DNA of 60,000 nucleotides from Amphiscolops sp. MND2022 (taxonomy: Eukaryota), in the NCBI GenBank assembly GCA_964187785.1, contig OZ076409.1:47370001-47430000 (forward strand), written 5' to 3'. Of the stretch, positions 2,536-42,323 are shown piece by piece. Numbering within the stretch: position 1 is the stretch's first letter; the number at the start of each line of letters is the position of its first letter. Under the pieces are notes generated by a model. It saw only the letters and a list, made by a program, of their open reading frames with translations. It did not search any database and had not been told where the DNA came from. The translations under genes and the position numbers were made by a program.

Positions 2536-2912
2536 CTCCTTGAAACGCGTCGCCTCAATTCGATCGCATTGGAATTGACGTGAACTTTCCAGCAAAAACT
2601 CGCATGAGCAACTCTTTATTAATGCCACTTTTGTGAGACTGAAAAACGTTTGTAGTCAACGGTCTAGAGAGTAAATTGACGTTTTTTGAAAATACCAAGA
2701 ATCGTTAGAGAGGGTTTCCTACACGAGTTAAGAGATTTTTTTTCACATTTGATCTGGAGAAAGCGCTGGAACATCTCAGAACATAAGTGTTTCATCAAAG
2801 AATCTACCTCCAATCCACCGACTTTAAATGTCAACTCACCATCACCCTAAGGTCATCTATACCTTGTGTGAACATAAATTAGTAGCCACGTCAGTAAGAA
2901 GCATGTGGTCAG

Positions 2913-4730
2913 TGTCTTAAGCACAAGTGTTCATAGGTCCGTCATTAGGACGATCACGGATTGGCTCACTTCTTGAGTTTCCTCTGGATTTCTCATTGCA
3001 GAACCTCTCGGAGTTCACCTCCGGTCTCTCTGACGGAACGTCCCATCAATCTTGTGTCAAACGACCTGATCCGGAATTAAGGGCAGTTTCAACCTGAGGC
3101 AACATTTGGTTACTGATTGGATCACTAATCGCCCTTTGGATCTGGGTGTTAAGACTACTCATCATTTCATCTAATTCTCTTGATAACCTCGAGTTCAACT
3201 CACTCGACAGTCTGTTGATCTCTGCACTAGAATTACCACTAGCCGAATTTTGGCCATAATCAGCATCAATACCAGTACCGACATTTCTTGAATCTAAGAA
3301 CCTGTTCTCATCAATGTTTTCACATTCATCGCCCAAGGTGCTTTCTGACCTTCCCGCATGGTTGCTGTTAAGGCTTTCGTCTCTTTCGTTTCTATTAAAA
3401 TGATTTTATCCAAGCCTGATGTCTAGATTTTCTACATCTGATAGAATCTCAATTCCTCAAGATTTCTAGCTTTCTTTTGCTTTCTTGTAGTAGGCATTTG
3501 AAGAGAACTCGAGATAAAACAGTGAATTGAACTTAGCTCGAAAACAATATTTTAAGGTTAAACTGAATAGTAAGCAGAATAAACAAATTGTGTCCTCCCA
3601 AGGAAAATAGCGGATAAATATATTCTCTCGGGAATGACATTCGTTCTCAATGTAAATAACAAGTTCCTTAAAAGGCACATGACAACATTCCTGGTGAGCA
3701 AATACCACACTTATCACCGTTGGGGTGTGACTGCTTCAGGAATGTGACCACATCATCTTCAAGTACACAAAATATGCGCTGCTGGTACGTGCCGCCACGT
3801 GAACGCTAAAGCACAGGACTGTGTACAATAAATACGATTACATGTAAAGTGCAACACGGAAGTAAGCCCAATTCGGCCAATTATTTTAATTTTGAATTTC
3901 CATTGGGGTATGGGCAAACTATTGAGAACAGCACGAAATAGACGTTCTGAATCATTTACGAGCCGTTCAATGCATTCAAAGGTTTAAGACAAGATTTACA
4001 TCAATAAAAAAAAGTATATTGCGTTTTACATGTTCGAGTCAAAATAGGCCAATGGCCTTACAAAAAACAATTGACATTAAAATTTGGTCAAATGGACCTA
4101 ACAGGCAATTATTCATCATAACTGCATACTAGCACTGATCAGAAAATTACCTATCATAAAAGGCACAGGTACGTAATTTTTGGTCAAGTACATGGGCGGT
4201 TGATATCCTACTTTCATTTTGAACAAAGTGGCCGGAATCGGCCGTTTGACTAAAGTATCAATTGTAAGTGGCAATATTACGGCAACTGGCTTTACTCGGC
4301 TATTATTGATAACTTGAAATAGAAAAAACTAATGCTGCAATATGATTGGCTAGGACGACGTGCTCAAGTGACGCTTTCGGATTAGCACTGTACATCACTT
4401 GAACACCTTGAGCACTTCCTATACTGCCTCACAGTTGCTTCTAATTTGTATTGCATTTAGCTCAGCAATTTTACATTGTACTAGCTCACATCATTCAATC
4501 GCCTGATTTGGATATTTCCAAATCGTATTGTTTTAACAGACTAAGAACAATTCCAATAATGCATAAAACATTGTATGGGTAAATAAAAATAGGAGAAAGA
4601 GCAAGCAAATATGGGTTTTCTAAAAGTTCGGTAGTTTGTATTTAAAAGGTAGGCAAAGTGCCTGGTATTATTTCTCGTCCGATTGCGGAAGTAGTCACGG
4701 TCGTACCATCACAGGCGGCAGCCTGCGACA
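2913..4730 (-). mobile_element. 3' LTR (~1.8 kb) of element B with a decayed Gag N-terminus (~2913-3497)
   Basis: TGTC...GACA ends; minus-strand start TGTCGCAGGCTGCCGCCTGTGA is nearly identical to element C; ILSDVENLDIRLG and SRELDEMMSSLNTQIQRAIS match element C Gag. Confidence 0.75.
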
Positions 4731-5417
4731 CTGCAGGTGCTACCAAAAGAAGAGAACCAGCATTCGGGCTTCCCTTCTAAGTCTAGTTATTTGTTCTGAC
4801 TCTCCTCTGGGCGTAGATCTTGACATGTACCAGTCCACCTTCTCCTTTTTGATCACGTCCACGGAACGGCCACAGACCATACATCCCGTGTAGCGTACCT
4901 CACTAATGTTTTGGTAGGGCCTTGTATTCTGAATGTGGTACGAAGCATGGAAACCATCTTTGACAGGCTGGACTAGTGGAGTGTCTTGACTTGGCCCCCT
5001 CTCGTGATCTGGTGGCGGCATCGGCGATTCTAGGACTGGCAAAATTGTGTTGCAACGCTCTGTCCATGTCCTTTCAGTCCTCTTCAGAGAGGCGTAACAC
5101 ATCTCGCGATCGAAATATTTGTAATCCAATTTCGGCTTCACGTCTGCGTGTATTTGAGATGTGCTCGGGCCCGCAACCATTTCGTCTTCTTTGGGGTCTT
5201 CAGTAGTCGTAATTCTACCGCCAATGAGCATGGGACTAGCGGTAACTTCTTTTTCTATGCGTGCTATCAGTTGCTCTGTATCGGTAGAACAATCTGTCTC
5301 CCAGTCCTCTGAGAGCTCATCTTCACTGCTTGATATATAAATTACGGAATTATCAGACTCATCTGAGTTAGACTCATCCAAGTCGAATAGCTTTCTTGAG
5401 AGATTTAATTTCTCCAT
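4642..5417 (-). pseudogene. Sense accessory ORF of element B, frameshifted near 4770, ending inside the LTR
   Basis: Shares P.L.GGR..T, SPM.PP....GPSQ, C.VCG.S, AGS.....VSQAAACDG and PG.LP with the ORF at 31001-31821. Confidence 0.8.
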
Positions 5418-8400
5418 TATAAATTTCTTGACGATTTTTGAAACTAATAAAGCAGCTGATTGGCAATGTGATTTGAGACAAAATGAATTTATCAAAATTA
5501 CAACTCGGGCCTATTTAGGATTTTTCCTGGAGTTTCAGTTTGGCGGTAGAAACTTCGGTTGATAGTCCTGATCTGTCGTAAATTTTTCCGAATGGAATTT
5601 TTCAGCGGTAACAAGTCTTGGAATTCTTGAATGTAACCCCCCCTCTCACCTTCTCAAGTGGATCGGAGAAGAGTCTTTGAGTTGTTTACAACAAATATCT
5701 CCATATCAAGTGGGTAATTAGCAGCGTGCTTGCGTGTTTTTAACGACATGCGCCGCTAGGTTTCTTCCAAAATAGCTTCAGTCAATCAAAGATGAGCTTC
5801 GATAAAATGAAAAATGAATAGTAAATTGGCGGAAATAATAAATCTAGATAATTCAAAATGGCGAAACTTTAACTAAAATAATAGGGGTAACGGAACAAAA
5901 CGACAAAACGAAATAAGGTAAACGGCCATAATCGGCTCCTAACTAAAAATGTTGTAAGTATTGAAGAAATCCCCTGTACATTTCGCTGGCAGACTTCATG
6001 TACATTTTAAATAGGTAAATAGCCATATAATAATAGCCTGGTAAAATCTTCAGCCACCATTTTTTCGATTGTTTTTCCAAATCAATACCCTTTACAATTT
6101 GCATCCGTTATATTTGTATTGTTCATCGTCTGGATTTTTTCAACCACTCCTATCTTCCTTTGCCTCCAAGCCTTGTTGTCAACCATATCCGTTTCTGGAT
6201 TCCCCAGTTTTTCTCCATTCTCAGCCCAACTCGGCCATTGTCTCAAACACCATCAAACTTTGATCAGCCAACTGAGGACTGTTTCCTGGAAGATTACCTT
6301 ACTGCAATAGAATGTCTTCTAACTCAGGTTGGTTCACGTTTCATATTTTGAACTAGTTTAACTTGATCAGAGCTAACCTTTATTCATGAGGCGCTTCCCT
6401 CTTCCATCTAAGAACGTGTGAAAACACGTCTTTCAAATTCAAAAGTCACTTCCGGAAGATTTCTAATGCGGCAAATGGATGCGTTTCGAGGAAGCTTAAC
6501 GCCAAGTTTTTTTTTCTTTTCGTTTAGAGAACCAAAGCTCCGAGGACGACGCAGCAACAAGTCCACTAGTAACCTCTCCACCTGTTTCCACGGACACGGC
6601 TATTCTGGATCCACAGAATGTTGCTGACCTTCTTAACTCTCCCCTGAGTGCTGACAGTGAACAGGACATTAGCGCTTATGCCGAAGCGAAAATTCAAAGT
6701 ATAGAGTCTGATGGGCTTTCTTCCACTGTGGGACTAATTGCCCAGGCTGCTGAAGCGGGATCAGAAGCCCAAGCCAAAGAAATGGCCAGTCAAGGACTTT
6801 CACCAGTAGTGATGCTGCGAACAAGTACCTCTATTCCAACGACAGACGAGTGGGCGGCAAGTTCCAGAATCTGGTTTACAAATTGTTGAGACTTCAGCAT
6901 CACAATTGCCAGAACTTCTACCCGCACCACGCCATAATCCAGTAGGGACACCTGCGTTGGCAGCCCAGACTGATGATGATAATGACTCATCTGTGTATGA
7001 AGTCCCTGCTCTGCCTAGTAACTACCCGAAAATACGTTTCCTCACCGATCTGAGTGAGACCGAAAAAACTGTTGAGGAGGCAAGCACCACTGGCCACCTT
7101 CAGTTATATGGCAACATTCCTAACACGTCAGGGTCAGGAACCGAGGCTGGGAAAGAACCAACTGCGCAAGTTGCTGGTCCCCCGCACCAGGGATACACAG
7201 CCACAACTTCTAGAGGGATAGAAGACAACCTCCCTGAGTTGCCTGGAAATCCAGGGCAATCCTTAAGACTTGTTTCGACGAGGCCCGAGCTTTCAAGCTG
7301 CCCCCAGGACATTCAACAGTGGCTTTTACTGAGCCACAAGTATACCACTTATTGCGGGTCTTCACAGACGAAACGCTCCGAATGTCTAACGATACCATGG
7401 AGAGAATGGTTCTTCATGCAGTGAGGGGCAAGGCTGCAACAGCTCCCTCCAGGACAGCACACTTCTACAAGAGCTAGGGCTTCCACCCCTTTTAGAAAAC
7501 TCTCCAGTGATTCCAGTGAAGTAGAAAGAGGAGGCGATTCGAATGCTGACACTGCACTGAAGACAGGACCCAAAGAAGACTCTCACTAGCACTCTAGTCC
7601 CGGGACCTCTGCCAGGCAAGTTGAGGAAAGTGCCCTAGAGACTGATCCTAGCAGCCAAGACATAACCCTTTCTGAAGTGAGAGAACAAGTGCTAGACACT
7701 ACATCCAAGAGACAGAGCATTTCCAAGAAACCAGGTCGGCCCAAGCGACAACAACAGCGTGGAGTTCCAATGCGTGACGAATTCTTGCGAAGATTGGATG
7801 GACAAGGATCTTTTATTTCTGGACCTGCAGACCCAATCCACAATCCACACATGGTTTGGTGTCATGTGTGTAAGGAGAATTTTTCGATTAAGACCAAGGG
7901 CCCCTTCGAATTTCTTCGGCATCACCGCAGTGAAAAACATCTGAGACGTGACCAGCGATGGAGGTACGAACACCTCAGGAGTCTTGACCCGGTTACTGGT
8001 AAGGTACAACACCGAGTTAGAGGCCGAAACGGGAAGCTACTGACAAAAATTGAGCTGGCAAAGGAATTACCAAAATTCATCCACGTTGAACTAGTAGATT
8101 TGGATGAGCGTTTCCCTTTCTACGACGACTTTGTCAGAGACCGAACAACTCCCCACATTACGCCTGAGTCACGAGCTCGAACCCAACTAAATATAGTCTC
8201 TGACTTCCTTCAGACTCAAGGAGACTTGTGCAAACTCCGAAACTTATGCGCACGGATCAGTTCCTTCACCGATCACCAGGCTGCTCTTTGTGATTTCGAC
8301 TGGGGTGAAGAACGATTGTCTGTAAGTATATCCCCAACTGAACCTTTCGTTCAAGTCATCTGATAAGATCATCAACACTTCGTTCTCATTTCAGGCCATA

Positions 8401-11157
8401 TTGCAGCACCTCTTCAATTGCGCGATGAGCGATATCGCTGAGCATGTTGCCTCGGAACAGTGTTTCGGACTTGAATGTGAGGACAAGGGGGCCAGCAGGT
8501 TCATATCCCTGCTCTTTTGGAAGAAGTCGGAACTGTGCCGAGTCCTGGTTTGTCGCAGTTGGTTGCCCTCCACTGAGTTAACTGGAGAGTTGATGTCCCT
8601 AGCTCGACTGCTGTCTGTGAATCTGACTAAAATTGATATAGTAGCCTGTTCCGGGTGTCCAGTCGACTTCGTGCACACGATCGATGAGATGCCAAGCTTT
8701 ACCCGTTCGGTCTAGAGCTGCTTTCGCTTCGAAAAACTAGACTTGCAGCGTTTGATGCACAAAACGAGCTACAGTGTCTTTGGGAACATTGACTTTTTCT
8801 CTGTACTGAGCGGCTTAGCGATTTCTCTAGAAAGATCGCTCACGGGAGTCTGGGTGCAAGGAAGCCCTGAACTCACTCGAGTAACTTAGCTTTACTTTAT
8901 TAGTAGTAGATAATACTCAGGGCAAGGTTAAGGTTAGTTCTCCTAATACATGCCGAACTCGGGACTTTCTCTTTTAGGCAGTAATCAGCTGCAGACTGGA
9001 TTTGCAGACTTTGCCGACACTGTGCAAAGAACTCATTGAAGAGTGGAAATCCTTGGTGGCATACTTGAATCTTCATGCCCCACAACAGCAGGGGCAAGGC
9101 GTACGGAGCAGGGTGAGTAAATGAATCTATCTGAACTTGATCCGCACCTGGGTTCTGGAGTTTTAGGATTTGAGTTGAAAATGCTTTAAGGTTCTAGGAA
9201 AATAACTTCGCGTTTTGTTCCTGGTACAGAGTTTCGATTGGTCACTTATTTGTGATGAGTTTTTCCTGGTCAAACTGGAAATCTTCTACTGGAAAATTTA
9301 GTCAATGACTGTTAGTATTCCACTAAGTGTTCCGGGTATCATTCCAGTTCCGGAGTGGGTCATCATTACAGAGGGGTAACCGGCAACGAAAATACAGATG
9401 GAAAGCGATGGACATGTATGAATGTATGGGCCAAAAATGCACTTTCGTTTCGCAGCCAAAACTGTTGCCTATTGATTTCCGAGGCAGCACAAGCTAGGTA
9501 TTGAGTTTTTTTGCAAGAGCGATGGCTTTACTTGCCCATGAATTATCGTTGATGATTGTAAATCGGGCAAGTAATTCCATCGCATTCGCAATGAAACTCA
9601 ATATTTAGATAGATCTGCCACTCGCTTCGGCCAATTCAATACATTGCTTTGACATGGAAGTGTCTCAATATTTATCTACACATGCAGAGTTTCAGTGTTC
9701 ATTTTTTGGTTCATCAAATTAATTCGGCAATATTTTTTGAACAAGCTTTATCAGTTCAATTTATATTTTCCCAGTTTTTTAGGGGAGAAATTTAAATTGG
9801 CAATGACGAAAATCTTCGTTCCGAAGCCAATCAATGCAGGATTATTACCTTGATGATATTTGGTTTACTATATTTTAATACTGTTTAATACTTATTTTTT
9901 CCTTTCTTTTGTATATAATGGCAATTATGATCGCGCAATTATGATAATGACAAATAATTTGATTTAATATGATGTGTATGTATATTATGATGTGTTAGTA
10001 TGTAGGTTTGATGTATTTTATTTTTTGGAAATTATTAATTGAATCAGTATCTTGTGAATCGTTTTTGTTTTGGGGCAAAAGAACAGTATAGTTGATATAT
10101 AATATGAGTTTAGGTTTTTTGACAACATAATGCCTTTAAACAATTGAGTCAAACAAAAAGTAATGAGGATTTTCTCATTAAATTGTTCAGAAAGACAAGC
10201 CCGAAGAAAGTTCTTATCATGCCATTTTAATCTTCTTGTAACCTCCTGATCTTCTTATGGTTGATATATAATATGTGTTTAAGAATATTCAATCATAACA
10301 AAAGAGCTGTTCAATATTTGTACAATTACTACAAAAAAACTTTATTCAATTGCTCACCTTGATTGATATAAGATATGTTTAAGTTTAGTGAATCAATAAC
10401 AAAAAAATTGTTTGATAGTTGTACAATTACTACAAAAACAACTTTATTAAACTATTTACCTTATCAGTCATCAAATCGAACAGTTTTGTCAGACAGAGTG
10501 TTGCTGGATACAAGGTAGAGTGATGAAAAATATGGAGGTTTGATAATCATTATTCAAATTTATTTCGGAGAAAAAAGTACCTGGGAATTGTTTAATAAAC
10601 TTCTAATATTCGGCAAATTCTTGTCTTTAGTTGAATAGGCATATCTCGGACATTTTTTGATATGTATTCAGATTTTATATCAAATTAAAAGGCCACACTT
10701 GGTGAGAAACGAATGGACAGATTATGTTCAACGAAGAGTTGAGTTCACTCATGCGTTTCCGAGATTTTCAGTTATGAACAACAAAACTCGCCCATGCATT
10801 CCCGAGTTTTTACCCAACATTTTTCAAGTTTTGGAAGGCCTTGCAGGTTGAGCAGGCCCAGCGGGTTGAGAAGAACGTCATCATGAAGACGGCTGGTACA
10901 GTGAAGGCAGACTTCGTCCGAGATGGGCAATCATACCAGCAGTTCTTAGTGAGTGAAGTCCTCAGGCGGGCTGGTTTGAGCTCCAAGCTTGTCAAGGGAT
11001 TGGCCGCCTTTATCCTATTGTAATGCTCAAGAGACCCACAGACGTTGCCGTGCGGCATTTTGACATGTTGTATAGCACCTTTCTCCTTAGGTCTTGGGTC
11101 ACCACTACCAATGAATCCGCCTGCCGAGATGAGTATTTGGGACTTGTCGACCATCTC

Positions 11158-11640
11158 GGTGGGGTATTTTTGGATCGAATTTTTGTGTGAGCGAAAAGCG
11201 ATATCGAAAATGGATCGAAGGATTTGAGATCGAATTTTTCCGGTTTTGCTAGGTTTTTGCTCCTGTAAAGTGTTTAAAAGCGTTTAAAATTATTTAGGTA
11301 GTTTTCCCCACCTAATATGGGATCATATACGGTGTATGCACGCTCGCCCTCACCGTCGCAAGGACCAGCTCCCACTACGATCGCTTCGCGATCTCCGTTC
11401 CCGCTAGGTCTTTGCTCCTGTTCGACCTCGCTTAGCAAGATGGGAACACAAGCGGCCCCAAGGGGCCGCGGGGCATTAGAGGAAATGGGGGGCATATCCG
11501 ACGGCCAAAAACATTGTTATTTGAAAACGCTAGGTATTTGAAAACATGGATTCGGTCTCAATTTCTTTGACCATTTTACTTCGATCTCAGTGACAGATTG
11601 CATATTCGCGCAAATTCATTCGATCCAAACGCCCACCGCC
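11158..11640. mobile_element. MITE, Mutator-type
   Basis: 9-bp TSD GACCATCTC (11149-11157, 11641-11649); imperfect TIRs containing TTTGGATCGAAT; removal restores ...LVDHL-HSSYP. Confidence 0.8.
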
Positions 11641-11900
11641 GACCATCTCCACTCCAGTTACCCTTCTTTGTTCGAGGTTACCAACAGTTCCAAAGATCTG
11701 ATCGATTTTCTCATCAACCTGGAGTTTATGCAGTCTCATCAGCATTTGTTGCATTTATTCAAGCTGTGTTGCCCATGTGCCACCTCCATTAGCCCTAGTA
11801 ATCCTGCAGTTACGATGAGGTCAATCAACACTTCGGGACATCACAGCAGATTCACTGATGTTATACTGCCATGTCAGAGTTACCTCTCGTCCGTCCCTGG

Positions 11901-12442
11901 GGAAATGGTCATTTCGCCTAATGCCATTTCGCCTAAAGTCATTTCGCCTAACGTGTTTGGTCACTTCGCCTAATTTTTTTAGGCGAAACGTCTTTTACTT
12001 TGGTCACTTCGCCTAATTTTTTTTCAGAAACGTGAAAAACACATGAAATTGGAAAACAAATAAATCGTTTAAGATCTAAAACTAAAAAGTGATATAAAAT
12101 AGAAAACGTGCCTCGGATATGTCCCATTCCTTCTAGTGCCCCGCGGCCCCTTGGGGCCGCTTATGTTCCATCTTGCTAAGCGAGGTCGAACAGGAGCAAA
12201 GACCTAGCGGGAACGGAGATCGCGAAGCGATCGTAGTGGGAGCTGGTCTTTGCGACGGTGAGGGCGAGTGTGCATACACCGCATATGCCCCACATTTTGA
12301 TATTTTCGCTTTCAGAAAGCCTTTTTCGAAACATGATTATTTAGACGTTATTCCCGTTTGGTCATTTCGCCTAATTTTTTTAGGCGAAATGACTCAACTA
12401 AATTTTTAGGCGAAATGGCATTAGGCGAAATGACCTGTATCC
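11901..12442. mobile_element. MITE, Mutator-type, with repeated CATTTCGCCTAA subterminal motifs
   Basis: 9-bp TSD CGTCCCTGG; TIR GGTCATTTCGCCTAATGCCATTTCGCCTAA at both ends. Confidence 0.9.
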
Positions 12443-14179
12443 CGTCCCTGGTTCCATTGCCTTTGTAGCAATGAAACTAATCTTAACAGCTTCTCTCCTG
12501 TCTACCTCTTTCGGTCAATCGGCCTTCTCTCCCACATAAGACCCTTGGACATACGTGGATGCTTTTGGAAGAGGTAAGATTTACAAGTCTCTCGTATCCG
12601 CCTATAGTTCCGCTGTATCCGAGTCACTGGATAGGGCCAGCATCCCACCTGGTCAAGATGTATCCACCATGGGCGACACTCCTGCTGTCCGAACTCCCAG
12701 TGAAAGGAAGCGGAGGAAAATGGAACGAGCTTCTTCAGGCTCAAGAGCTTCCTCAGTCGCTGATGAATCCTTTGCAGAACCCTTTAAAAACTAAGTGTAC
12801 ATTTGTATTTATGTACACAGTCTTTGAAAACTTTGATTAATTCTCTGCACTTTCTTGTATTTATTCTTATCATCAGCTGTTTTAATCATAGTATGCTAAA
12901 TGGCTATTTTGCTTTCGACTACCTCCGATTTATGTTCATAGTAACCACCAACTGTCGATTAAATTTCAGTTGGAAGATGAATAAAATTTTCTCCGGGTGC
13001 TATAGGGAATCGGTTTCTCTATGTTTTGTGCGCAAGAGTGCAAACTCGATAGATCGTGGTTACAATGCTGTGTCAAGGATTAGACGCCTTCTTGTGCAGT
13101 CGACTGGTAGCATCTGCGTTTGCGGAACTGCCTCATGGCTTAGCTCAAGTGAAATGAAATCAAAATTTGTAGCACCTCTTCAGCTTATTCAGGACAGTCC
13201 AAGAAGATTCTTGTTTGCCTCTTTGGCTTCCTTTGAATGCATGAACTGGTTTTATGATACTTTGATAATCGATCGATCTCTGCGACGAAACTCAAAATTT
13301 GCTTCAAGCCAGCTATCCAAATTGAAATTTATATTTATGAGTGCGAGTTATCCTTCGTTGCAGTTGGTGTTCAACATTGCTATTTACTACCTGGCGTCAA
13401 ACTTCCTGATCCAAATTTCTTCTGCTGATCAATGTTTCACTTTTCTTCTTCTGTATTTACAGACTCGAGCTATAGCCCGCGTTACTTCCACAGCTGTTCA
13501 TTGTTTGTTGAGAGCTAAGTGGAAGATGCTCCCTAAGACTCCCAAGTCAATTGGATTTTATCTTATAGCAGCACAGCAGCTAAAGGAAAACAGAAATACC
13601 AATCTTAGCATTGAACACAATGGATTTGTATTTTCCGTCAAAGGTGAAACCCTGTTCCAAATTATCATGGGGTTGGAATTTGTTGGATTTCTTTTTTCTG
13701 GTCACTTTCCTAAATACGCATTCGCTCATGAGGGAAACATTGCCGCCCTACTCACTGCTTGGAACCTGACACCCTTTTAAGGCTGACTGAAAAATGAAAA
13801 TTGTCTCCCCACTTGGACTTTTTTCAGAACTCAGGTTCTACACTCTTTGAAAGCGTAGAAATTGATGGCGTGCTGGCATTGCTTCTTTCATACTCAAAGA
13901 AGAGAATAGTTTGATCAAGCAAGTTATGTTTCCCGTCGAAGAAAGTTTGGGCGAATAATGCTCTTCAATTAGGAAAATTCTCAAACTTGGACTGACCGAA
14001 ATCAATAATTATTCTTTTGATGGATATTCTTAAATGTTGAAAGTGGTAATATTTAGTAGAATTAAGTACTTGTCGAACCAAACCTATTTCAGTTTCTTTT
14101 CCACATATTTGAACCAAAGCATTCAAAATATTCACGTAACCAATGGAGGTATCGTTGGGCAGTTTCAAAACGTCATCAT

Positions 14180-29462: not shown

Positions 29463-31092
29463 TGTCGTGATTTTGTTCACTATTCACAGAGTCTACTGAA
29501 CTCTGTCTCGACGTTAGTCTATTGTTTTCCTGCATAAAACACTTTCTAGGGCGATTTTCCCATGATTTCTGAGCGTTTTCAACTTCGGAGTTCCATTGTA
29601 GCCCACTGGACCTTCGGTCTCCCGTGGTGAAATTAGTTGATTTTGAACTATCATGTAGCCCAATGGACCCTCGGTCCACCATGGTGTGATTTACTCTGTC
29701 CTGCATTTCCAGCGTATTTTGGATGGAAGGAAGTATTTTCTCAGTGATTGCGCTACTAATAGCGTCTTGTATTTGAATATTCAAGCTACTTTTGATCTCA
29801 TTTAGTTTCCTTGACATTTGATTAGAAATCTCTTCATTAATCATTCTAGTGGTCTCAATAGTAATTTCACTATTCTCCCTGTTATTTGTATTGAGTAAAG
29901 ACCTAAAGTCCTCCCCAATTACATTCGAACTTTGCTGTGGTCTATTGGACCCTGAGTCCAAATTTATTCCATTTTCACTAATATCATTTTCCTCATCGTC
30001 CCTGGAGTAGCTTCCAAGCATTATATCTACACTTTCCACGTCGGACATCATGTCCAATTGTCTAGAGCGTCGCTCTTTAGCCTTTTGCTTCCTAGTTGAA
30101 GGCATCGAAGAATCAATTTAATCAACAATGAATTGATTAAAAAGTTATTCAAACAGATTTCAACAAGTAAAAAGACGAAACAATTTATGAAAGAGTTGTG
30201 AACGTAGTGTCAGGTATCGCAAATTATTATTAAATCATCCTCGGGACTTGGCGTCCCGGCTATTTATATTTTCCACTGCATGACAAGCACAATTTATCTG
30301 GTCATTGTTCTAAATTTAGCCCCTAAGTGGGCTAAAAACAGCCTTGAAGGAGATGACATCACTATTACCACACTTTCAAGTAACTATAAATAGCAACAGT
30401 TCATATCAAAGCAAAAGGTGTGGGGGTTTCAAAGTTTTACCAGAGGGCCTTTCAGCATCAAAGAATATCTACATGTGCATCACAATATCATCATGATTGC
30501 ATGGAGGATATAATAAACAGCTAATCGCGTTAATAATACCAAGGCGGACTTAAAGTCCGCATAGCTACAGCACAGTGACGTCATAGTCATAGTATATGAA
30601 TAACACCATGGCGGACTCAAGGTCCGTTTGACTACAGTAATATTATACTGCCTTCTGATTGGCTATGAGTGGTATAGACAGCGCGTACAATCTAGCAAAG
30701 GAAACAAACATTTGAACTCGTTTCCTTTGCTACGTACAATTGCTAATTACCAATTTTACAGCGTTTGAATTTATTCAATTTGCCATTGCTTTTACATTGA
30801 TTAACTAACAGTCCTAGGTAATACAAACAATAAACAGATAAAAATTATACTCCAAAATATGGTTAATATCCGTATAAGAGTGAGTTCAAGCTTGAAACAT
30901 TTATTGTAGGCAAATCGACTGACGGTCCTCTATGGTGTAATTTGCATCTTCTTTGTCATACGTCGTATTGGTACTTCTTAAGTCACTCAGGCCTTCTTGA
31001 TTAGATTGGTAGTACTCCTGGGGGCGGATTTGACACGTTATTTCCCTCTGGGATTTGATACAGAATGCCGTCACAGGCGGCAGCCTGTGACA
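29463..31092 (-). repeat. 3' LTR of element C (1630 bp), including a truncated Gag copy (ORF 29398-30105)
   Basis: Direct repeat of 43444-45074; TGTC...GACA ends. Confidence 0.97.
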
Positions 31093-31821
31093 CTCCCCCT
31101 GGGATTAAAATTACACTACCTGCACTCATACCTGCTAAGAAAGCATTTCGTCGTCTAATACGTTGTGCGTAGGTTTCTCCAGGGATGTGGGTTTGTTCCA
31201 AGTATACAAGTGTGATCTCCTCTTGTATAGTTGCGAACGATTTGCCACACACTGTACAATGGCCCCGTTGGATGTAATTCGGCTCTCCACAAGACCCACC
31301 TGTGCTAATTGCCAGTCCAGTGATGTGTTGATTGGTGATCCACGAATCAACTTGTTCTGGCCCTTCAGCCCACTGGTCATTTCTAATATTCTGCGATGGC
31401 CCTTGATCAACCAATGGGGGTGACATCGGTGAATATGGTATTGGCTCCAATTGGCCATACGGTGATTCGGGTCATTTGCACGGTAAGATTGAGTAGGGCG
31501 GCTTCCAACAAGCCAGTCAACCAGGCTGTCTGACGGGTCGAATTTTGAGTCTAACGATCCCGACGGGCCACAAAAATATTGTATCTCGTCATCAGTGTGA
31601 GCGTCGTGATCAAAAGTCATTGCTCTACCTCCGGCTAATTGCGGTGGATAGACAGGGGTCTCCCTGTAACAGGCGATTACTTCTATATCGCTGTCCGCAT
31701 CCTGATCTTGTTCTATAGCCGTCACGGAAGCTGAGTCAATTTCCATATCCTCTTCTGAGGATTCGTAGAGTGCACTGACCAAGGGTCTGATAAATTCTTC
31801 AACGTCGAATTGTAGAGACAT
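31001..31821 (-). pseudogene. Sense accessory ORF of element C (~273 aa; one frameshift near 31455), ending inside U3
   Basis: Joining ORFs 31135-31920 and 31001-31450 gives a protein colinear with 4642-5417. Confidence 0.8.
31093..31100 (-). promoter_or_regulatory. Short polypurine tract
   Basis: AGGGGGAG directly before the 3' LTR TGTCACA. Confidence 0.7.
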
Positions 31822-32968: not shown

Positions 32969-35900
32969 ATGGATTCATATTCTGGAAGTGAACCGTGCAA
33001 ATTCATATCTTTCCATTTAGGTAAAGAGAACATCGGCCAACCCCAACAAACGTCTTGTGAGCCTGAACCAATAACTATTCCCGAACAATTGGCCAGTAAT
33101 GAAACCCTAGCAATCGAGTCACCCAGACTTAGCATAAGTCCAGCCACAGAAGTGGACCAAGAGGTCACGCAGCCACAACACTCTCCAGGACCTTCAATGA
33201 TCTCCCGACTTTTTGGCACCGACAGTAGTGGGTCAAACGAGAGTTGAGTTGCGACACGTACATTACTTGCAAGCTTAACCAGTTAGCTGAGAAGATTGCC
33301 TTGGAAACGTCCGAAGTTACTGGGTTTATTCAGAAAGAAAGCATCAGTGAAGCTATAGCACTCACTCCTAGCGTCCAACATTACGAGTATTTCCAACTTG
33401 ATAGGAGTTCTTGCCCCCAAGTCACCTTTCTGGATTCTCCAAAAGAAGCTGGAACCAGCGGTTGTCCGGAACCAGAAGCGTCAGCAGCAAAGAAGCCGAG
33501 AATGACACCGCCTCAGAATAGCTCGACTGGGACCGAAATGCCAGCTGATCCGCCTGCTGCCGTCACCGCTACTAGGGGGCAAACTGCCTCTGACAGTGAG
33601 GGCGAACAAATTGAATTTGAACCTCCTTTCGCCAATTATAGCAGTTCAGAGATTTGCCACCTTAGTGATCATGAGTCAGACCGATATGTCGGGTCAACAT
33701 TAGCTGAGGCGTTAAACCCGCCTGCTCAGTTTTCTCTGTTGGTTGCTAGCGATCAGTCTAGTGACGTTGCTACAGTCAAGACTCCCGAAGAGCCTAAAGT
33801 CCGCCCCTTAGGTGGAAGTAGCAGAGCCCTGATTAAAGAATACTTTGGCAATAATGAACCTGAAAGACTCCCACCAGGCCATCCCGTTATTGCCTTCACA
33901 GAGGGACAATTGGGCAGTGTCCTTAGAGTCGTTGCTGATGAAACTGCTCGGGCATCGTACGATATGCTTGAAAACTTATAGTACAGTGCTAGTCGCCTCT
34001 CTTTGTCAACTAAGGCAGGTGCTGACTCAGGCAAGGGCAGAATTTCTTCCAGACAATGATCTTCAGTCGACTCCTCACGTAGTCGGCGGGCTAGTTCAAT
34101 TACCGACAAAGGCAGCGACACCAGTGGGGTACTAAGGAGTGACGACAATTTTAGTAGCATCGGCTATTCATTTGAGCACTCTGAACCCGAGCACATAGCT
34201 GCTGCACCTCGGCCAACTCAGCCCTCCTCTAGCCGTAATGACCCTGGGTCCCCTATGGTCACTTTCAGTGCTGATAGTCCAGGAATTCAAACTCTGGCTG
34301 AGTTGAAGAAAGAGGCGGTACACGACCGACAGCAAAAGACCAGGAATGAGAAGGGACGCTACATAGCCTCTTCAAAAGGTACTCCCAGAGCTAAGCGGGG
34401 TGTGTCCAGATCCTGCAAGATAATGAAGGAAGCCTATTTTAAAGGCATGGAATGGACACGAACTTTCATCTCGGGACCAGTCGACCCCAAGTGGAACAAG
34501 TATAAATTTTATTGCCAGATTTGCAAGGCAAATTTATCTATCTACTCAAAAGGGGCCCGAGAAATTCTCAGACACCATTCGACAGAGAAACATCTACCCA
34601 AGGATCAACGTTGGAGATATGAATATCTTTACAAAGTTGACCCTGTAACCAAGGCGCGTTACCCTCAAGTCCGCGGGAAAGACGGCAAGTTTTTATCTCC
34701 TTACCAACTTGCTCTCGAGTTGCCCAAGTTTAAAGATGTCGAGCTGGTTGACATAGGTGAGAAGTTGCCCTTTTATGAAGAAGTTATGTCGGGAGCAGAC
34801 CATATGTCCTCCAGTTCAGAGAGCCGGGACGAATTCAGATTTCCGTATTGTGTCGATTTCTTCCCCGGTATGGCGACATTGAGTTACTTCGTCACTTCTG
34901 GCGAGACGTTGGCGTGATCGTAAATCACCAGTCCCTTTCACGGACTTCAACTGGACCAAGGAACGGCTCACCGTAAGTATGCACTTTGGCTACTCTAAGT
35001 GTCTTAACAGCCATTCATTTGATTTGTTTCAATCCTGTTCTCCTTTTGATTTGCTCGAGTAGACTTAAGGTCCGCCAGCCTACAACACAGTCCTTCATTG
35101 GCTGCTTTGTTTTACAGCTCATATTTCACCATATGTTCCTTGAGCTCGTAAAAGATATTGGCCACCACGTGGTTTCAACGGGAGAGTATGGGCTCGAATT
35201 CGCGAATGATGGGGCCTTTCTTCTTGTGTTCATCCGATTCTGGCATGAAGACCAACTTTGTCGAGTTTTCTTGAAGAGGACCGGAAGGACCCAAGGCCAG
35301 AACCCATCTGAGCTCACTCTCGTGGCGCACGTGATGGGTGCTCTCTCCACTGAACCACACATTGTCAGTGTTACCGGGAGCAAGGTCCAGACAGTACAAC
35401 AACTCGATTATAGTTGCTATAGCAACTACGCAGTCCAGAGTCCCCCTCGTTTTGAAGAGCTTCAGCTGAGGGCGTTAATGCACAAGAAGAGCTCTAGTGT
35501 GTTTGGCGAGATCGACTTCTTCGGCGTCCTACAATACTTGGTGGTCTCACTTGGGCCAAGCCTCGAACTGGACTGGGTACTGCTCTCACCTGAATTGTCC
35601 AAGGTAAGCATCATTTCCCTTGTCCTGCAATTCCTTAGTGGGGAGAGACGATGTATATACGCACACACACACATACATATACATTCACATCATTTTCTAG
35701 GCAATTCGGACGTGCCAGCTTGAGATGACTGGATTATCCCCATTGTGCCAAGAGTTACTCAAGCAATGGCCAAAGGTGACAGCCTACCTCAGCGAACACA
35801 CTGTTTCCCAACAAATGCAGGATGTGAGAAACCTTTTTACTAATTCCTTTTACTTTATTCTTGGTTATAAGTTGCTTTAAGAATTTCCCAATTCTGTGGT

Positions 35901-37242
35901 CCAATGGACGTTCGGTCTCGTGTGGCTTCTGATCTTGTAAACGTTGATTGCATCATGTTGGCCGCTACGAGTTCTTAATCATGATGATTTTCCTTTGTTT
36001 TATGGCGATTTCGTGTTATTTCAGTCCCAAGGTCTCGAATGGTCTCTGTTGTATGATCCTCTCTTCCCATCGCGACTAGAGGTCTTTCAGCGGTTGGTTC
36101 GGGACTACACTTCTAGTTTTACTCTAAATTTAAAGCAAAGGCGAGACAGAGGCTTCCATGTGTTCCGGGAACTCATCCAGTTCCTTTTCAAATTGGGCCG
36201 ACGCTGCATCCGACCAGCTAATTTACCCATTGAGAGTGATATGCTGAGCATTTTGTGTCTGCCGATACCAGACGTCAAGGCCTTGAGTATCAGCGGTTTC
36301 CTCTCAAGATCAAAATTAGAGACCAGACTCGAAACGGCTTGTAAAGTCCAAGCAGAGGCTGAGAAAGGAGAACGCAAGAATGAAGGATTGAAGCTGGAAG
36401 AGGTCGCCTCTGAAATCAAAGAAGAGTTCGGACGGAGTGCCCGTTCCTATGTTAGCTTCCTGTTTAAAGGGACACAGCGGCTCACTCGATTCACCTCCGA
36501 TATAGTCAAAGGTCTAGGATCTTTTGACCTCGCGATAATGCTGGTTGAGCCGCTGGAGAATGCAGCGTATTGCTTCAAGCAGCTCTTCACGAGTTTTCGA
36601 CTCCGCGCATTATTGCAGCCAGAGGAAGAAACAGTTTATACAGAAGAGTATATGTCTTTCCTGGACATACTTCGCCAATCTCACCCGGGCGTGCAACAGC
36701 CGAAGCTTTTGATTGCGGACACCATTGAATTTGTTTGTGGGCAAGATTCCTTCAAGTCCAGGCTGTACCTGCGTCGTATATTTCGGCTAAGTTGTTTGTG
36801 TCTGGATGAACCCCGCATGTCATTCCCTCTGGTGAAGTTTGGTTCTCATCGGACTGACGACCCTCTAAGTCCTATTTTCGATGTTATTGCGCCCATACAA
36901 TCGTATCTTGACAATGTGCCCCAAGGTCTGGATGTCCTCACTAGCGATTCTTCCATAACGCGGTTCGTAGGATTAGAGCAGTCTTTTGGTAATGCCGGGC
37001 TTAGTGATGTGTACAGCCCCTGGGATTCGATCGATCATTTTGGGAGAGTCCAAATTAGAGAAGCTCTAGGTACTAGCAGTTCCGGACAGACGACAACCTC
37101 CAGCGTTGATGGGACTGCTGAGGGCACTGGTTTGAAGCCTTTCGCTGTCCCAAAGTCTTACAAACGCCGCAGTCTTCTACTGACTGGGAAAGAACTGGCG
37201 GATTCCGCTTCACGTCTTGTCGCTAGATGCAGTAAGGATTAA
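32969..37242 (+). pseudogene. Antisense spliced gene for a BED-finger, hAT-transposase-like protein; exons ~32969-34972, 35118-35603, 35701-35823, 36025-37242
   Basis: FYCQIC...RHHSTEKH; three phase-0 GT-AG introns; a few stops and frameshifts (~33240, 33979, ~34058, ~34830-34940). Confidence 0.85.
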
Positions 37243-37406: not shown

Positions 37407-40400
37407 TTAGTATCTGTATTCATCAGTGAAGTTGGGGGTGGGGTTAGGACGAAGGTTATATTTCCCTCCCCTCGGGCTTTCATTTTCTACAATCATATCG
37501 TTTCCATCATCTAATACTTCGGGCACGATAGTATCGCTCCCGCCTGATGATTGTTGGTCATGAAGCCAGTCATTTGTGCTTTCTAAGGGTGTTTTTTCAA
37601 GCGGTACCGGAGTGTCACTTTGGTGTGGCCCGGTGGACCGAAGGTCCACGACGGTGAAAATTTCGCCTGACTGGCTGGTGTTGTCCACACAGCTATTTGG
37701 AGTGTCTGCGGTATCCAGACGCGGAGGATTTGCGGTTTCTGCAGTTGGATCGGGAAAGTCTCCAAAACTAGTTTCCCACGTGATGACGTATAGGTCATCT
37801 TGCGGAATGATAATTTCGTAGTCCGGTTGCAAGTTGCCTTCCGGTTTGTTGTCCTGTAGGGCAGTATTCGGTTCGTATTTGCGCAGTCTAATGCGGTGTA
37901 GGATTTGCGTTTTGTTGGAATTAAGTTTTCTAACTATGTAGTTTTCATTCGGTAAAACCTTTTCTACAATGTAGGCACCTGTCCATCGGTATTCGCGGAA
38001 TGGAATTTTCGATCCTTGGTGGTCGGCAATAGGTTGTAATATGAAACAATAGTCATTTTGTCGCAAAGGGGCCGCTTTGGCCTTTCGATCATAATATTCT
38101 TTGTATTTCAAATAGGATTGCATGATGTTTTTCTTTGTGGAGTCTAGTAATATTTGGGTGCGTCTTTGAAATTCATCTGCGAAGTCTGTAGTCGGAAGGA
38201 CCTTTGGGTTGGGGTTAAGGCCTAATTTGTGATCCAGTATATTGTATGGAATTCTCCCATGGAAAATTCTAGATGAGTCACATCCCAGGGAGGCGTGATA
38301 AGTTGTATTGTAATTCAATACGGCTAACGGCAAGTATTTGTGCCACTGTCGCCTATAGTCCCCTGAGGCCATCTTGAGATTCGTTTTGAGACTAGCGTGA
38401 GTACGCTCTAGTTTACCGATTGTTTGCGGATGTTTTGTAGTTGCTCATTTCAGTTGAATACCTAAAATTTGGGCAATTTCTGCTATCAATTTGGACGTAA
38501 AGGCAGTTCCTTTGTCTGTGATCAAAGTAGTAGGTAAGTAGGTGTGTTTAGTCATTATGTCAATAATGACCTTAGCTGTGTTCGTGGCCGACGCATCGGT
38601 CACTGGGTATGCAAAAAGGTATCTTGAAAAAACGTCCATTGCGGTTATGATGTTTTCGTAGCCACCACTTGGGGGTAGGTTCGGTAATAAATCTATTTGC
38701 AATGCGTCTTCTGGGCCTAAGTCCCATTCGGGCAAATTCAATAATTCTGGTGTTATGGATGAGTTTGGAATTCTCTTGTCTTTAATACAGATTCCGCATC
38801 CCTGAACCCATTTTTTGACGATTTTTGCGATGCCAGGGTAGTTATATTTTTAGCGGATATTTATGAGCATCTCGGATATTCCAGGGTGTTTATTTGCTTT
38901 TCCATGTAGAGATTGGAGTAGTTCTTGGACCAGGTGTTTTGGTAGGAGCACTTGATTGTATTTAACAGCTCCAGTTTCATCAAAATACTGTCTGGTAATG
39001 ATTTCATCCATGACGGACAGTCGGTCCATTTGGCGACAGTAATGTTGGTACCGCGTATCTTGGACTAGAATGGCTTCTGAATAGGCTTCCTTCAATATTT
39101 CGAGGCGCAATTGCTGTAGGATGACATCGTTGTTTTGCTCTACTGCTATAGAGTTCGTATATGAGAGTTTTTGGAGTGTAGAAAGTTTGTACTAATCGCT
39201 TTTGTGTGTATTAAATGAAATGTCTGGTAATTGATTCGCTGGATTATCCCTAGCGTCTTTTTTACGTTGTAAAATTTGTTCTTCTGTATCGTCGTCATCT
39301 TCTGTATAGAAGATTTGTTCCTCTTCCAAGACTACGGCCGATTGGACGTGTAGTTCAATCGGTGTCGTAGGGATATCTTCCCTAATTCGGAGGATTAATT
39401 TCTCTTTTGGCAAGATTTCTAGACGCGACAGATAGTCAGCTGCTGTGTTGTTTTTACCTGGGATATGCGCTATAGTGAAATTGAACTGAATAACATAATC
39501 GCAAGCATTCCATAGTGTTGGCGGAATAATTTTCATCTGAAAAAATTATGTGACGGACTTATTGTCCGTCAATATAATCACCGGTTTTGGGGTTCCCCAA
39601 AAGATATGTCCAAATTCCTTGAAAGCAAAGAAAATTGCTAAGAATTCTTTTGCGTAAATGGACATTTTCAATTGGGTAGGACTAAAGGTCTTGGATCCAT
39701 AGGCTACTGGTGCGAAAGCCTTCCTCGTGGAAGTGTATTTTTCGAGTGAATCATCCTCGATGAGAACTGCGTACCCCGCGGCTGAAAAGCTGGCATCTGT
39801 CATAAGAGCTATTTGCTTGTTCGGTAAGGGCTGTTTGAGTGCCAGTTCACAACATCGATCAAGAGCCTTGTTTATCTCGGTGAATTTTTCCAAGAGGTCC
39901 GGTGTTACCAGGACTTTTTCATCTTTAGTAAGTAGTTTGAAAAACGGTGTTAGTTTTTCTGATAATCTTGGGATGTAGTTTCGGTAATAGTTTAGAAATC
40001 CCAAGTAACGCTGTAGTGCTTTTTTGGACTTCGGAAATTTTGTATTTGCCAGGAAGTTTTGGACACGAGGTCTCTGCGGCTTCACTCCAGGAGGAGTGAT
40101 GGTGCGTCCCAGGAAATCGATTTCCGTTGCTCCAAAGTGACATTTGTGCATGGTAAGTTTCAGACCAGCTCTTTGAATGCATTGGAAAGTGGCCCTCAGA
40201 TTGTTGATGAATTGTTCGGCATCATTGGCAGCGATGCCAATGTCATCAACGTATTGGGCGAAGGTTCTGCTGGCGAAATTGAAAGCAAGCATTTCGATGG
40301 ACCGCTGGTCGGCCATCTGTAGGCAATGATATGCCTGCGAGCAGTCCATATTACAAAATAGCTTTTTCCCGGCCATGTGTTGGGCTGCATCTGTGAGAGT

Positions 40401-42323
40401 ACTCACCGGGTGATTGTTGTTCATATAATCATCTGAAATGAGGTTGTTGATTTTTCTTAAATCGACTAAAAGTCGTAGTTTTCCATTGGGTTTCTTTTGG
40501 GTAAAAATTGGGCTTGCATATTTAGAGAATGGGAGAGTTGTAATGATCCCATAACGGTGTAGTAGTGCCAGCTCCACAAGGATATCCTCTTTGAGATTGA
40601 TTGGGGTTGGCATACTCTGACTATAGGCTGGGGAGTCACCTTTCGGTGTTAATTTGACCTTGAAGTCCTAGTTCATGCCTATGTCAAATCGATGTCTAGC
40701 GAATATGTCGTGAAATTCGACAAGTAAGTCTTCTATGCGAGCTATTTCAGCTGGTTGCTGCATAGAGTCTGTCCAGTCAAAATTAGACAAGAATTGTCGT
40801 CTGGACTCAGTGTCATCTTGAGGGTTAAATTTCTCTAATTCCTGAAGGTTGATTAGTTCTGACAAAATCCTTTTCTGGATGGGTGTGTGATGCTGGGGAT
40901 CCCCAGGGTCTTCTGGTGTTGGGAACCAGTAATTCTCCTTGAAGTCCTCAGGTTTGGTGGATTTGATCAAGCTGCTTGCATAATGAGCAGCATTCTCAGG
41001 GTTAGCCTGTAGTAGGTGCCATGTGGTCACCGGGTCTATAGGTTTAACATATTTCATCTGTTCTGGTGTCAGGACAGTGAAAGTGGCTACTTGTGTGCCC
41101 CTTTTAAGAGTGTAGGGACTGTCAGTAAAATTGTTCAGGTGGACGGATACTTGACCATTGGTCAAGGTGACTAGAGCAGCACAAAAGGCTATATCGCCAT
41201 CATCAGTGATGTTGCTCGGTTGAAGGATCGCAGTAACTGTAGTGTCCTCGTACAGTTGTGACGCCATTAGGACCGGGTGTCGGTCATTAGGTGGGATGGT
41301 TACAACCTCTCTAATGCAAATGGGTTCCATGACGTTAGTATATTTGTGATCTGCGGTTTTTAATTGCATGGAAAAGAAAGGAAAATTCAAGACTCCTTGT
41401 CTCATGTCCAGGATAGTGTTGTTTCGTTGAAGGAACGAAAGGCCAATCAGAGGACTGGTGAGTTTTTCCATGACTATAAATATTTCGTGAAATTCTATGT
41501 CGCCAACTTCAAATTTAAGTTCGACAGTGCTCCTTGGTGTTTCCAGCTGCCCATTTGCAACCATGATTTGGAAGTTGGGTGCCGGGCCCTCTTTGACAAT
41601 AGACTGAGGGGCTAGTAATCGGATTTTACGTAGATCTGCTTCTGGGATTGCGCTAGATAGAGCTCCCGTGTCTACAAGGCCAGCTAAAATTAGTTCGCCG
41701 AAAACCATTGGAAAATAGAGCATTCGTCGTTTGTATTTGATGCCAAGACTGGTTGTCAGCGGTACATAGTCTGGTTCCCCTGTTCTGGTGACTAGGGTGT
41801 TCCCAAAGCGTGCTGTAACGGCTGTAGCCAGAGAGACCTGTGGTCCCACATGGTGAATTTCGTCGTCTGCAGCCGCGTGGGTCGTTTGATAAGTGAAATA
41901 TGTGCCACGTTGCCATGGATCTACTCGGGCCTTCATAAGGACCATATTCAGGGCTTGGTCAATTTCGAAAGAATCAAGTTCTATGTTGTGGCTTGGTTTA
42001 TTGAAATTACGGTAGAAGTATAGATGATGTGGATTGTAGCAATTAGAGTCCCAATAGGGGTCAAAACCATAATCAGGATCAAAGTAGTAGGGGTTATAGT
42101 CATCAATAAGGGATATAAGTCGTTTAGTAGTAGTATCGTTTTGTAGTCTGGTGGACATAAGGTCCAAAGTGGTTGGAGGAGTCTTCATCTGCTGCTGCCA
42201 GTCAGCTGATGATGTTTCTTTAAGGTATGTATAGTATTCAGTATAATATATGTTTGAAGGGTCAGATATTATGTATTGTCGGACACGGAGTTTTTCATTA
42301 AATTGGAGTCGTGGCAAATCTAG
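37407..42323 (-). pseudogene. pol: Pol polyprotein (protease, dUTPase-like region, RT, RNase H, integrase) with stops, frameshifts and an RT deletion
   Basis: LVDTGA; LRLLVDLRKIN, YVDD; TDAS, KEFLAI, TDNK; H-H-C-C, QIDL, TDKG, GKLERTH; WTGAY. Confidence 0.97.

What the first reader, a model, noticed from the sequence alone, without database searches (positions are those of the whole stretch)
6475..12794. Divergent homolog of the antisense gene has the same position and intron structure
Element B encodes a homolog (SGP.DP..N, DQRWRYE.L..DPVT, ELPKF..VELVD..E..PFY, VKGL..F, QSYL..VP) at the same place and orientation, with introns at identical codons: ERLS/ERLT and PELTR/PELSK, the latter 97 bp in both. 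DNA is far diverged while motifs and splice sites persist, which implies long-term selection on an element-borne gene rather than a one-off capture.
Basis: partly seen in the sequence, partly recalled or inferred. Interest (0 to 1): 0.82.

Follow-up and report, generated by a model that had tools for sequence, protein, structure and literature searches.

The report
Retrotransposon's swappable spliced dead-transposase gene
An abundant animal LTR retrotransposon family carries, on its opposite strand, a conserved extra gene with up to four predicted introns that different copies swap as a cassette; it likely derives from a DNA-transposon enzyme that lost its cutting residues and would act as the element's own DNA-binding regulator.

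Summary
Observation confirmed and extended. B (6475-12794) is a decayed copy of an antisense gene that sits between pol and the 3' LTR of a ~16-kb Ty3/gypsy family (element C, 29463-45074). The genome holds at least 1,255 copies of its first splice donor; 78 of 80 sampled copies have integrase antisense beside them, and 30 of 30 pol ends carry the gene. Four intron positions are shared across deeply diverged copies, three show exact losses in some lineages, and pN/pS is 0.06-0.21. The 97/97-bp match is chance (range 66-152). Gene and RT trees agree only at the deepest split; within clades the gene is exchanged as a ~4.8-kb cassette. Anatomy: disordered N-terminus, BED-like C2H2 finger, RNase H-like fold whose top Foldseek hits are Hermes (hAT) transposase (E 0.003; not significant by sequence), inferred catalytic Asp/Glu missing. 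Best reading: a catalytically dead DNA transposase co-opted as a trans-acting nuclear regulator. Function and expression untested. Antisense accessory ORFs are known from plant and fungal gypsy elements; this spliced, transposase-like, swappable animal version was not found in my searches.

The parts
2866..4724 (-). 3' LTR of element B (left boundary approximate); carries a decayed gag N-terminal stretch at 3007-3450
   Evidence: end motif shared with full elements
4743..5417 (-). ORF3 of B: sense ORF, acidic N-terminus, CxxC, runs towards the 3' LTR; no Pfam match
6448..6458 (+). palindrome conserved upstream of the ATG in both clades (ETS-site-like, label recalled); likely promoter part
   Evidence: 9/10 B-type, 8/10 C-type elements
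6475..8321 (+). B gene, first coding exon: low-complexity N-terminus, conserved island 7250-7441, basic patch, C2H2/BED-like finger (~7860-7940); frameshifts and stops
8322..8394 (+). intron A (phase 0, GT..AG)
8395..8880 (+). 486-nt exon, predicted RNase H-like fold; one stop in B
8881..8977 (+). intron B (97 nt, phase 0)
8978..9112 (+). 135-nt exon
9113..9223 (+). intron C (acceptor damaged in B)
9224..9310 (+). short exon; intron D donor (phase 1) follows at 9311
9368..10859 (.). unrelated DNA replacing the end of intron D and the start of the last exon
10860..12794 (+). remnants of B's last exon (10860-11157, 11640-11900, ~12452-12794), split by two MITE-like insertions
11158..11639 (.). 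MITE-like insertion, ~10-bp direct repeat, terminal inverted repeat
11901..12441 (.). second MITE-like insertion, 8-10-bp direct repeat
29463..31092 (-). 3' LTR of element C (98.2% to 5' LTR; 5-bp target duplication flanks the element)
31004..31820 (-). ORF3 of C (frameshifted), reads into the 3' LTR
32969..37242 (+). C antisense gene: exons 32969-34972, 35118-35603, 35701-35835, 36025-37242; introns A 34973-35117, B 35604-35700, C 35836-36024 (donor damaged); intron D absent; frameshifts and a stop in the first exon
37407..42368 (-). pol of C: protease, RT, RNase H, integrase (Ty3/gypsy order), broken by stops
42320..44080 (-). gag of C, starting ~200 codons inside the 5' LTR and reading through the PBS; CCHC knuckles
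43432..43443 (-). primer-binding site, 12 nt, complementary to a tRNA-Leu(CAG) 3' end
43444..45074 (-). 5' LTR of element C

Best explanation
The finding is a decayed copy of a conserved antisense accessory gene, predicted to be spliced, of a large Ty3/gypsy family; the gene likely descends from a hAT-type DNA transposase that lost its catalytic residues and would work as a trans-acting nuclear DNA-binding factor that helps the element be transcribed or escape silencing. Shown: position between pol and ORF3/3' LTR, opposite strand, obligate linkage with pol, four conserved GT-AG intron positions, purifying selection, cassette exchange. Inferred steps: (1) a DNA transposon landed antisense in the 3' region, the only orientation in which introns survive the genomic RNA's passage through the spliceosome; (2) it is transcribed from an internal promoter in the ORF3-gene spacer and spliced to ~1,280 codons (sum of exons); (3) exact intron losses arose by RT switching onto the spliced antisense mRNA or its cDNA; (4) BED-like finger, basic patch and S/T/P/E/D-rich arm bind DNA and recruit host factors, the dead RNase H core acting as scaffold; (5) template switching in short conserved flanks reshuffles [LTR+ORF3], [gene] and [gag-pol], so the target must be shared across a clade rather than private to one LTR.
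For: Linkage: 78/80, 30/30. Introns: GT-AG in 71/77 (A; donor preselected), 62/76 (B), 58/76 plus 12 exact losses (C); D absent in 4/76; B lost exactly in one other copy; 0 intron-A-less copies against 1,255 with donor. Selection: pN/pS 0.062, 0.121, 0.207 over 9 pairs, N-terminus about 0.2-0.3 in 6 pairs. Finger ligands C, C, H, H kept in 15, 15, 15, 14 of 15 rows; sub-threshold zf-BED (best E 0.011) and Spin-doc finger (E 0.014) hits. 486-nt exon folds helix-b1-b2-b3-helix-b4 (pLDDT 69); Foldseek ranks Hermes 1, 2, 5, 6, 12 (E 2.7e-3); VIA aligns the leading helix plus sheet to Hermes (Z 6.0, rmsd 3.7, 103 aa), ISCth4 (Z 6.9, rmsd 3.3, 106 aa) and P transposase (Z 5.8, rmsd 3.1, 101 aa); ESM Atlas top hit for a distant homolog is DUF659 (0.76, lead only). 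No Asp at either inferred catalytic position in 50 rows; no ERxFS-like motif in 28 last exons. Precedent for catalytically dead transposases as regulators: bioRxiv 10.64898/2026.08.24.746577 (abstract, passages).
Against: No expression or splicing data. No sequence-level link to hAT: Pfam, hmmsearch and hhalign against this genome's own hAT transposases are at shuffle level. Fold scores are middling and glucokinase, Pelota and retroviral integrases score as high or higher by VIA (Z 7.0-7.5). Last exon model is poor (pLDDT 49). Catalytic positions are assigned by pattern and offset, not by residue-level superposition. Free exchange between different LTRs (L086/L132, L084/L137) argues against a VANC-like private protein-target pair. 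Nothing here separates activator from repressor or integration tether.
Confidence: 0.47

Rival explanations
1. Same dead-transposase gene, but it acts at integration: a tether or nuclear-import factor for the pre-integration complex, as chromodomains or retroviral accessory proteins do.
For: Always found with pol (30/30); 74 of 76 copies pair gene type with RT type at the B/C clade level; a gag-only relative with near-identical LTRs lacks both pol and the gene.
Against: Integrase is 95-100% identical across B-type copies while the gene falls to about 55-60%, odd for a fixed partner; target duplications are varied; antisense expression is uncoupled from Gag-Pol.
Confidence: 0.2
2. A self-restraint or immunity factor: diverged alleles repress related elements, or act as dominant-negative decoys for host silencing or for hAT transposases, and are kept by frequency-dependent selection.
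For: Many deeply diverged alleles with saturated synonymous sites coexist on near-identical backbones (70 of 300 B-B pairs); HBZ is an antisense regulator in HTLV-1 (passage in PMC11963269); the genome holds intact hATs.
Against: All measured pN/pS are below 1; allele depth can follow from recombination being blocked inside diverged DNA; no similarity to resident hATs.
Confidence: 0.17
3. The protein is not hAT-derived: it comes from a Mutator/IS256, P or other RNase H-fold protein or from a captured host gene.
For: VIA Z for ISCth4, integrases and sugar kinases equals or exceeds Hermes; hAT profiles fail; four introns are host-like.
Against: Order finger - leading helix - RNase H - helical region - (A/S)FDP ... 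L..L..L spacing fits hAT layout (layout recalled); Foldseek and Atlas both point to hAT; only 2 of 80 copies lacked neighbouring integrase and both are rearranged or truncated.
Confidence: 0.25
4. A passenger: a nested DNA transposon, or an ORF kept only for its antisense RNA.
For: Cassette-like boundaries; antisense RNA roles are known for micropia (PMC7264820).
Against: Strong codon-level constraint, fixed exon lengths, no Asp at the inferred catalytic sites; breakpoints lie in short conserved flanks and I saw no terminal inverted repeat there (by eye, one pair).
Confidence: 0.04

Closest known systems
Plant Retand/Tat, Grande (gene23), RIRE2 antisense additional ORFs (TRP28, PF04195)
   Same: Ty3/gypsy; antisense ORF between pol and 3' LTR, present in most copies; own internal promoter and nuclear protein shown for Grande; DNA binding predicted (PMC7264820 main text; PMC11963269 passages).
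   Different: Animal host; no TRP28 match; finger plus RNase H fold; four conserved intron positions with exact losses; cassette exchange. The review says aORFs lack similarity to other TEs and calls for a search for spliced antisense transcripts.
Boty/brtn of Botrytis cinerea
   Same: Antisense accessory gene in a gypsy element outside plants (PMC7264820; PMC4227169 passage).
   Different: Fungal chromovirus; homology not tested; primary paper not read.
hAT transposases (Hermes) and domesticated ZBED/Buster derivatives
   Same: BED-like finger, leading helix and RNase H sheet.
   Different: No Asp at inferred catalytic sites, no ERxFS, no TIRs seen, no Pfam or profile match; carried by a retrotransposon rather than the host.
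VANC (VANDAL) and TnpA (Spm) transposon-encoded regulators
   Same: Element-encoded trans factor; TnpA derives from a transposase (bioRxiv 10.64898/2026.08.24.746577, abstract and passages; VANC papers PMC5735166, PMC10398659 seen as listings only).
   Different: DNA transposons of plants; VANC pairs with private targets, whereas this gene moves between different LTRs; activity untested here.
HTLV-1 HBZ / HTLV-2 APH-2
   Same: Antisense nuclear regulator of an LTR element (PMC11963269 passage; splicing of HBZ recalled).
   Different: bZIP protein driven from the 3' LTR, overlapping sense genes; unrelated fold.

Membership tests
Ty3/gypsy LTR retrotransposon | LTR pair TG..CA with 4-6-bp target duplication | tested here: met
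   C: 98.2% LTRs, 5-bp duplication; 21 of 25 elements with an LTR pair show 5-bp duplications
Ty3/gypsy LTR retrotransposon | gag, then PR-RT-RH-IN order | tested here: met
Ty3/gypsy LTR retrotransposon | tRNA primer-binding site | tested here: met
   12-nt match to a tRNA-Leu(CAG) end
Ty3/gypsy LTR retrotransposon | polypurine tract before 3' LTR | tested here: inconclusive
   short purine run in C-type, none in B-type
hAT transposase (active) | N-terminal BED finger | tested here: inconclusive
   CxxC..H..H conserved; zf-BED best E 0.011, below cut-off
hAT transposase (active) | RNase H-like catalytic core | tested here: inconclusive
   fold predicted; Hermes top by Foldseek at E 2.7e-3, Z 6.0 by VIA, not above other RNase H folds
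hAT transposase (active) | DDE triad | tested here: not met
   0 of 50 Asp at either inferred site; no ERxFS in 28 last exons; positions inferred by pattern
hAT transposase (active) | C-terminal dimerisation domain PF05699 | tested here: inconclusive
   no Pfam hit in 12 and 34 rows; only a by-eye motif spacing; model too poor
hAT transposon | TIRs and 8-bp duplication around the gene | tested here: inconclusive
   none seen at the breakpoints of one pair; not searched systematically
Retand-type antisense aORF | [quoted passage not shown] | tested here: met
Retand-type antisense aORF | TRP28 (PF04195) domain, plant Tat clade | tested here: not met
   no PF04195 hit; host is an animal (Notch-ligand exon)
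VANC/TnpA-like anti-silencing factor | sequence-specific binding and activation of cognate copies | not testable with these tools
   no expression or chromatin data
VANC/TnpA-like anti-silencing factor | co-inheritance with private target repeats | tested here: not met
   gene moves between unlike LTRs and unlike genes share one LTR; clade-level motifs exist but are untested

The most novel reading that the evidence does not exclude
An animal retrotransposon domesticated a DNA transposase into its own spliced, antisense transcription or anti-silencing factor, and keeps a pool of ancient alleles of it that are traded between elements as a cassette in an arms race with host silencing: one transposon class domesticating another.
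Probability: 0.3. Interest if true: 0.87.

Novelty: new variant of a known kind. Interest (0 to 1): 0.72.

Why it matters
Antisense accessory ORFs of gypsy elements have no known origin or function (PMC7264820). Here one has a traceable fold, over a thousand copies, many natural alleles and recent intact copies, so origin and function become testable. It would show transposase domestication by another mobile element rather than by the host, a natural case of introns persisting and being lost exactly inside an RNA-replicating element, and phage-like modular exchange in a family that by count (1,255 x ~16 kb) may fill about 2% of the genome.

Tried and rejected
No RNA holder was listed for the gene, so no reads were laid. 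Complex prediction of the 486-nt exon with the last exon gave no answer (score 0.00, alignments unused). Last-exon model: pLDDT 49, no clear PDB match, no Atlas or PDB-sequence lead. Profile tests against resident hATs were at shuffle level. DUF4371 search of the genome rang nowhere, controls included; Spin-doc search gave one unrelated hAT. No relatives in JGI metagenome or IMG/VR scans. Protein searches returned only unnamed ENA ORFs among the rows listed (120 of 411; 6; none; 150 of 598); no annotated spliced protein was seen. Alignment A4 (mixed exon fragments) was misaligned and dropped. L151 looked intron-A-less but is a chimeric deletion. A possible mini-intron in the first 18 codons was considered; the codons vary synonymously but three are invariant, unresolved. 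Idea that the gene co-segregates with its LTR: rejected. Earlier findings: none. Literature searches listed no animal LTR element with a spliced transposase-derived antisense gene; two searches used guessed host groups and listed nothing on this family; subscription journals, Repbase and supplements were not seen, so a prior Repbase entry cannot be excluded.
Full report
OBSERVATION. The + strand of 6475-12794 holds pieces of a gene homologous to 32969-37242. tblastx aligns a 64-aa island, a 146-aa finger region (44.5%), the 486-nt exon, the 135-nt exon and last-exon pieces in order. Introns A and B fall at the same codons with GT..AG ends; the exon between them is 486 nt in both. DNA identity is at shuffle level while protein identity is about 40%. 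The shared 97-bp length is chance: 66-152 nt in 76 copies, 3.5% of pairs tie. Two further intron positions exist. B has a 3' LTR (~2866-4724) and a sense ORF3, but no pol between B and C; its last exon is partly deleted and split by two MITE-like insertions. Both window copies are broken.

THE ELEMENT. C is a complete Ty3/gypsy element on the minus strand: LTRs 98.2% identical, 5-bp duplication, gag, PR-RT-RH-IN, PBS matching a tRNA-Leu(CAG) end. Of 26 other copies examined with flanks, 25 gave an LTR pair, 15.2-16.5 kb apart end to end, many above 99% identical, 21 of 25 with 5-bp duplications. Layout: 5' LTR - gag - pol - [antisense gene] - spacer - ORF3 - 3' LTR. A Notch-ligand exon at 59040-59513 marks the host as an animal; I did not determine the species.

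ABUNDANCE AND LINKAGE. An exact degenerate motif for the first donor occurs 1,255 times, control 0; pol-end and LTR-PBS motifs occur 786 and 2,187 times (the last includes relatives). I fetched 80 of the first 100 listed donor sites on contig C1, leaving out B, C, one copy already held and 17 others (tandem neighbours or beyond budget). 78 of 80 have integrase and 76 of 80 RT antisense downstream. Conversely the first 30 pol ends all have the last exon antisense within 1.5 kb. A gag-only relative at the window's left edge, LTRs 99.7% identical, lacks pol and the gene, so the gene is not needed in cis.

SPLICING SIGNAL. In the 80 (3 unscorable): intron A GT-AG in 71 of 77 (donor preselected), B 62 of 76, C 58 of 76 plus 12 exact absences, D absent in 4 of 76. 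Intron B is exactly absent in one further copy, and D in the lineage of element C. No intron-A-less copy was found here, but P0261, from another source (best 28-37% to this genome among the 115 candidates scored), reads through that position and stops just past the intron-B position. Because these introns occur in both deep clades, absence is read as loss. Exact loss, including the phase-1 intron D without flanking microhomology, is indirect evidence of a spliced mRNA meeting RT (inference). Established logic: sense-strand introns would be removed from the genomic RNA before reverse transcription; antisense ones are not. No RNA run could be consulted.

SELECTION. On 9 sister pairs drawn from the 29 of 82 copies with all five domains unbroken: pN/pS 0.062 (finger exon), 0.121 (486-nt exon), 0.207 (last exon); N-terminal arm about 0.2-0.3 in 6 pairs. 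25 of 80 copies keep both the long first exon and the 486-nt exon open.

TREES. On 38 copies, gene and RT trees share the deep B/C split with full support; by best hit 74 of 76 copies pair gene type with RT type. Within clades they conflict: five AU tests reject (p 2e-4 to 4e-78; groups named after seeing the trees). L086 and L132 are 94-99% identical except for a ~4.8-kb block at 50-66% that is the gene with ~400 nt upstream; L084/L137 and L075/L079 show the reverse. Breakpoints lie in short conserved flanks. So [LTR+ORF3], [gene] and [gag-pol] reassort, as expected from template switching limited to conserved islands (inference). This counts against a private protein-LTR pairing.

WHAT THE PROTEIN IS. 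About 450-500 aa of S/T/P/E/D/Q/G-rich sequence with one conserved island and a basic patch; a CxxC-H-H finger with sub-threshold BED and Spin-doc hits; a 162-aa exon predicted as helix-b1-b2-b3-helix-b4-helix (pLDDT 69). Foldseek ranks Hermes chains 1, 2, 5, 6 and 12 (E 2.7e-3, none under 1e-3). VIA gives Hermes Z 5.3-6.0, ISCth4 6.9 and P transposase 5.7-5.8, all aligned from the leading helix, but glucokinase 7.5, Pelota 7.0 and integrases up to 7.0. Atlas features of P0261 point to DUF659 (0.76, lead). By pattern and offset, Hermes D180 and D248 (numbers recalled) map to positions 29 and 86, which hold E/A/V/I/Q and S/T/L/A, never D, in 50 rows; the last exon has (A/S)FDP and L..L..L motifs at hAT-like spacing but no ERxFS in 28 rows. 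Against: every sequence-profile test versus hATs failed and the last-exon model is poor. I put an RNase H-fold DDE-transposase origin at about 0.7 and hAT specifically at about 0.55.

MECHANISM. Most likely a nuclear, trans-acting DNA-binding regulator made from an internal promoter (a palindrome sits upstream of the ATG in 17 of 20 elements; ETS, YY1 and CCAAT labels are recalled). Catalytically dead transposases recurrently become regulators, and Spm TnpA arose from a transposase (bioRxiv 10.64898/2026.08.24.746577; abstract and passages). The finger is the most constrained part and exchange stays almost entirely within clades, which fits a clade-wide target. Rivals: integration tether, repressor or immunity factor, non-hAT origin, passenger.

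KNOWN SYSTEMS. [quoted passage not shown] Searches listed no spliced, transposase-like animal case. Homologs at 26-41% to loci held here occur among unnamed ENA ORFs, so the family is probably older than this genome; their context was not seen.

VERDICT. Real, element-borne, selected. New variant of a known kind; interest 0.72.

Noticed in passing
window 29463-30100 and 43444-44080: Both LTRs contain ~200 codons of the gag N-terminus; gag starts inside the 5' LTR and reads through the PBS, in all full copies seen.
   Followed up: partly
window 31004-31820 and 4743-5417 (-): ORF3: conserved ~260-275-aa sense ORF, acidic N-terminus, CxxC, ending ~30 codons inside the 3' LTR; no Pfam match; travels with the LTR, not with the antisense gene.
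   Followed up: partly
window 4725-4745; B-type elements: No purine-rich tract before the 3' LTR in B-type elements, although they are recently active.
   Followed up: no
window 1-2535 and L049:4557-10000: Non-autonomous relative: 2.3-kb LTRs 99.7% identical, same PBS, gag, pol stub, a different acidic ORF, no antisense gene.
   Followed up: partly
L087, L078, L141 and others: Copies that lost one intron often have a neighbouring intron about twice the usual length; two copies have long introns without loss.
   Followed up: no
G000:C12:14846033-14874965; C7:62496160-62525506: Copies repeated at ~14.5-kb spacing, suggesting tandem arrays sharing LTRs.
   Followed up: no
window 11158-11639 and 11901-12441: Two MITE-like insertions with 8-10-bp direct repeats, each holding one arm of a 188-bp inverted repeat.
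   Followed up: partly
G000:C8:35.59-35.64 Mb: Dense tandem array of tRNA-3'-end matches (964 genome-wide, one scored as tRNA-Leu(CAG)), the likely primer.
   Followed up: no
window 51571-55128 (+): A-rich decayed element with an integrase remnant at 54496-55125, between 91-bp direct repeats at 50803 and 55771.
   Followed up: no
window 59040-59513 (+): Exon of a Notch ligand (MNNL, E 4e-11), a host gene.
   Followed up: no
L206-L210: Several apparently intact hAT transposase ORFs (597-697 aa) in the same genome; none resembles the accessory gene by sequence.
   Followed up: yes
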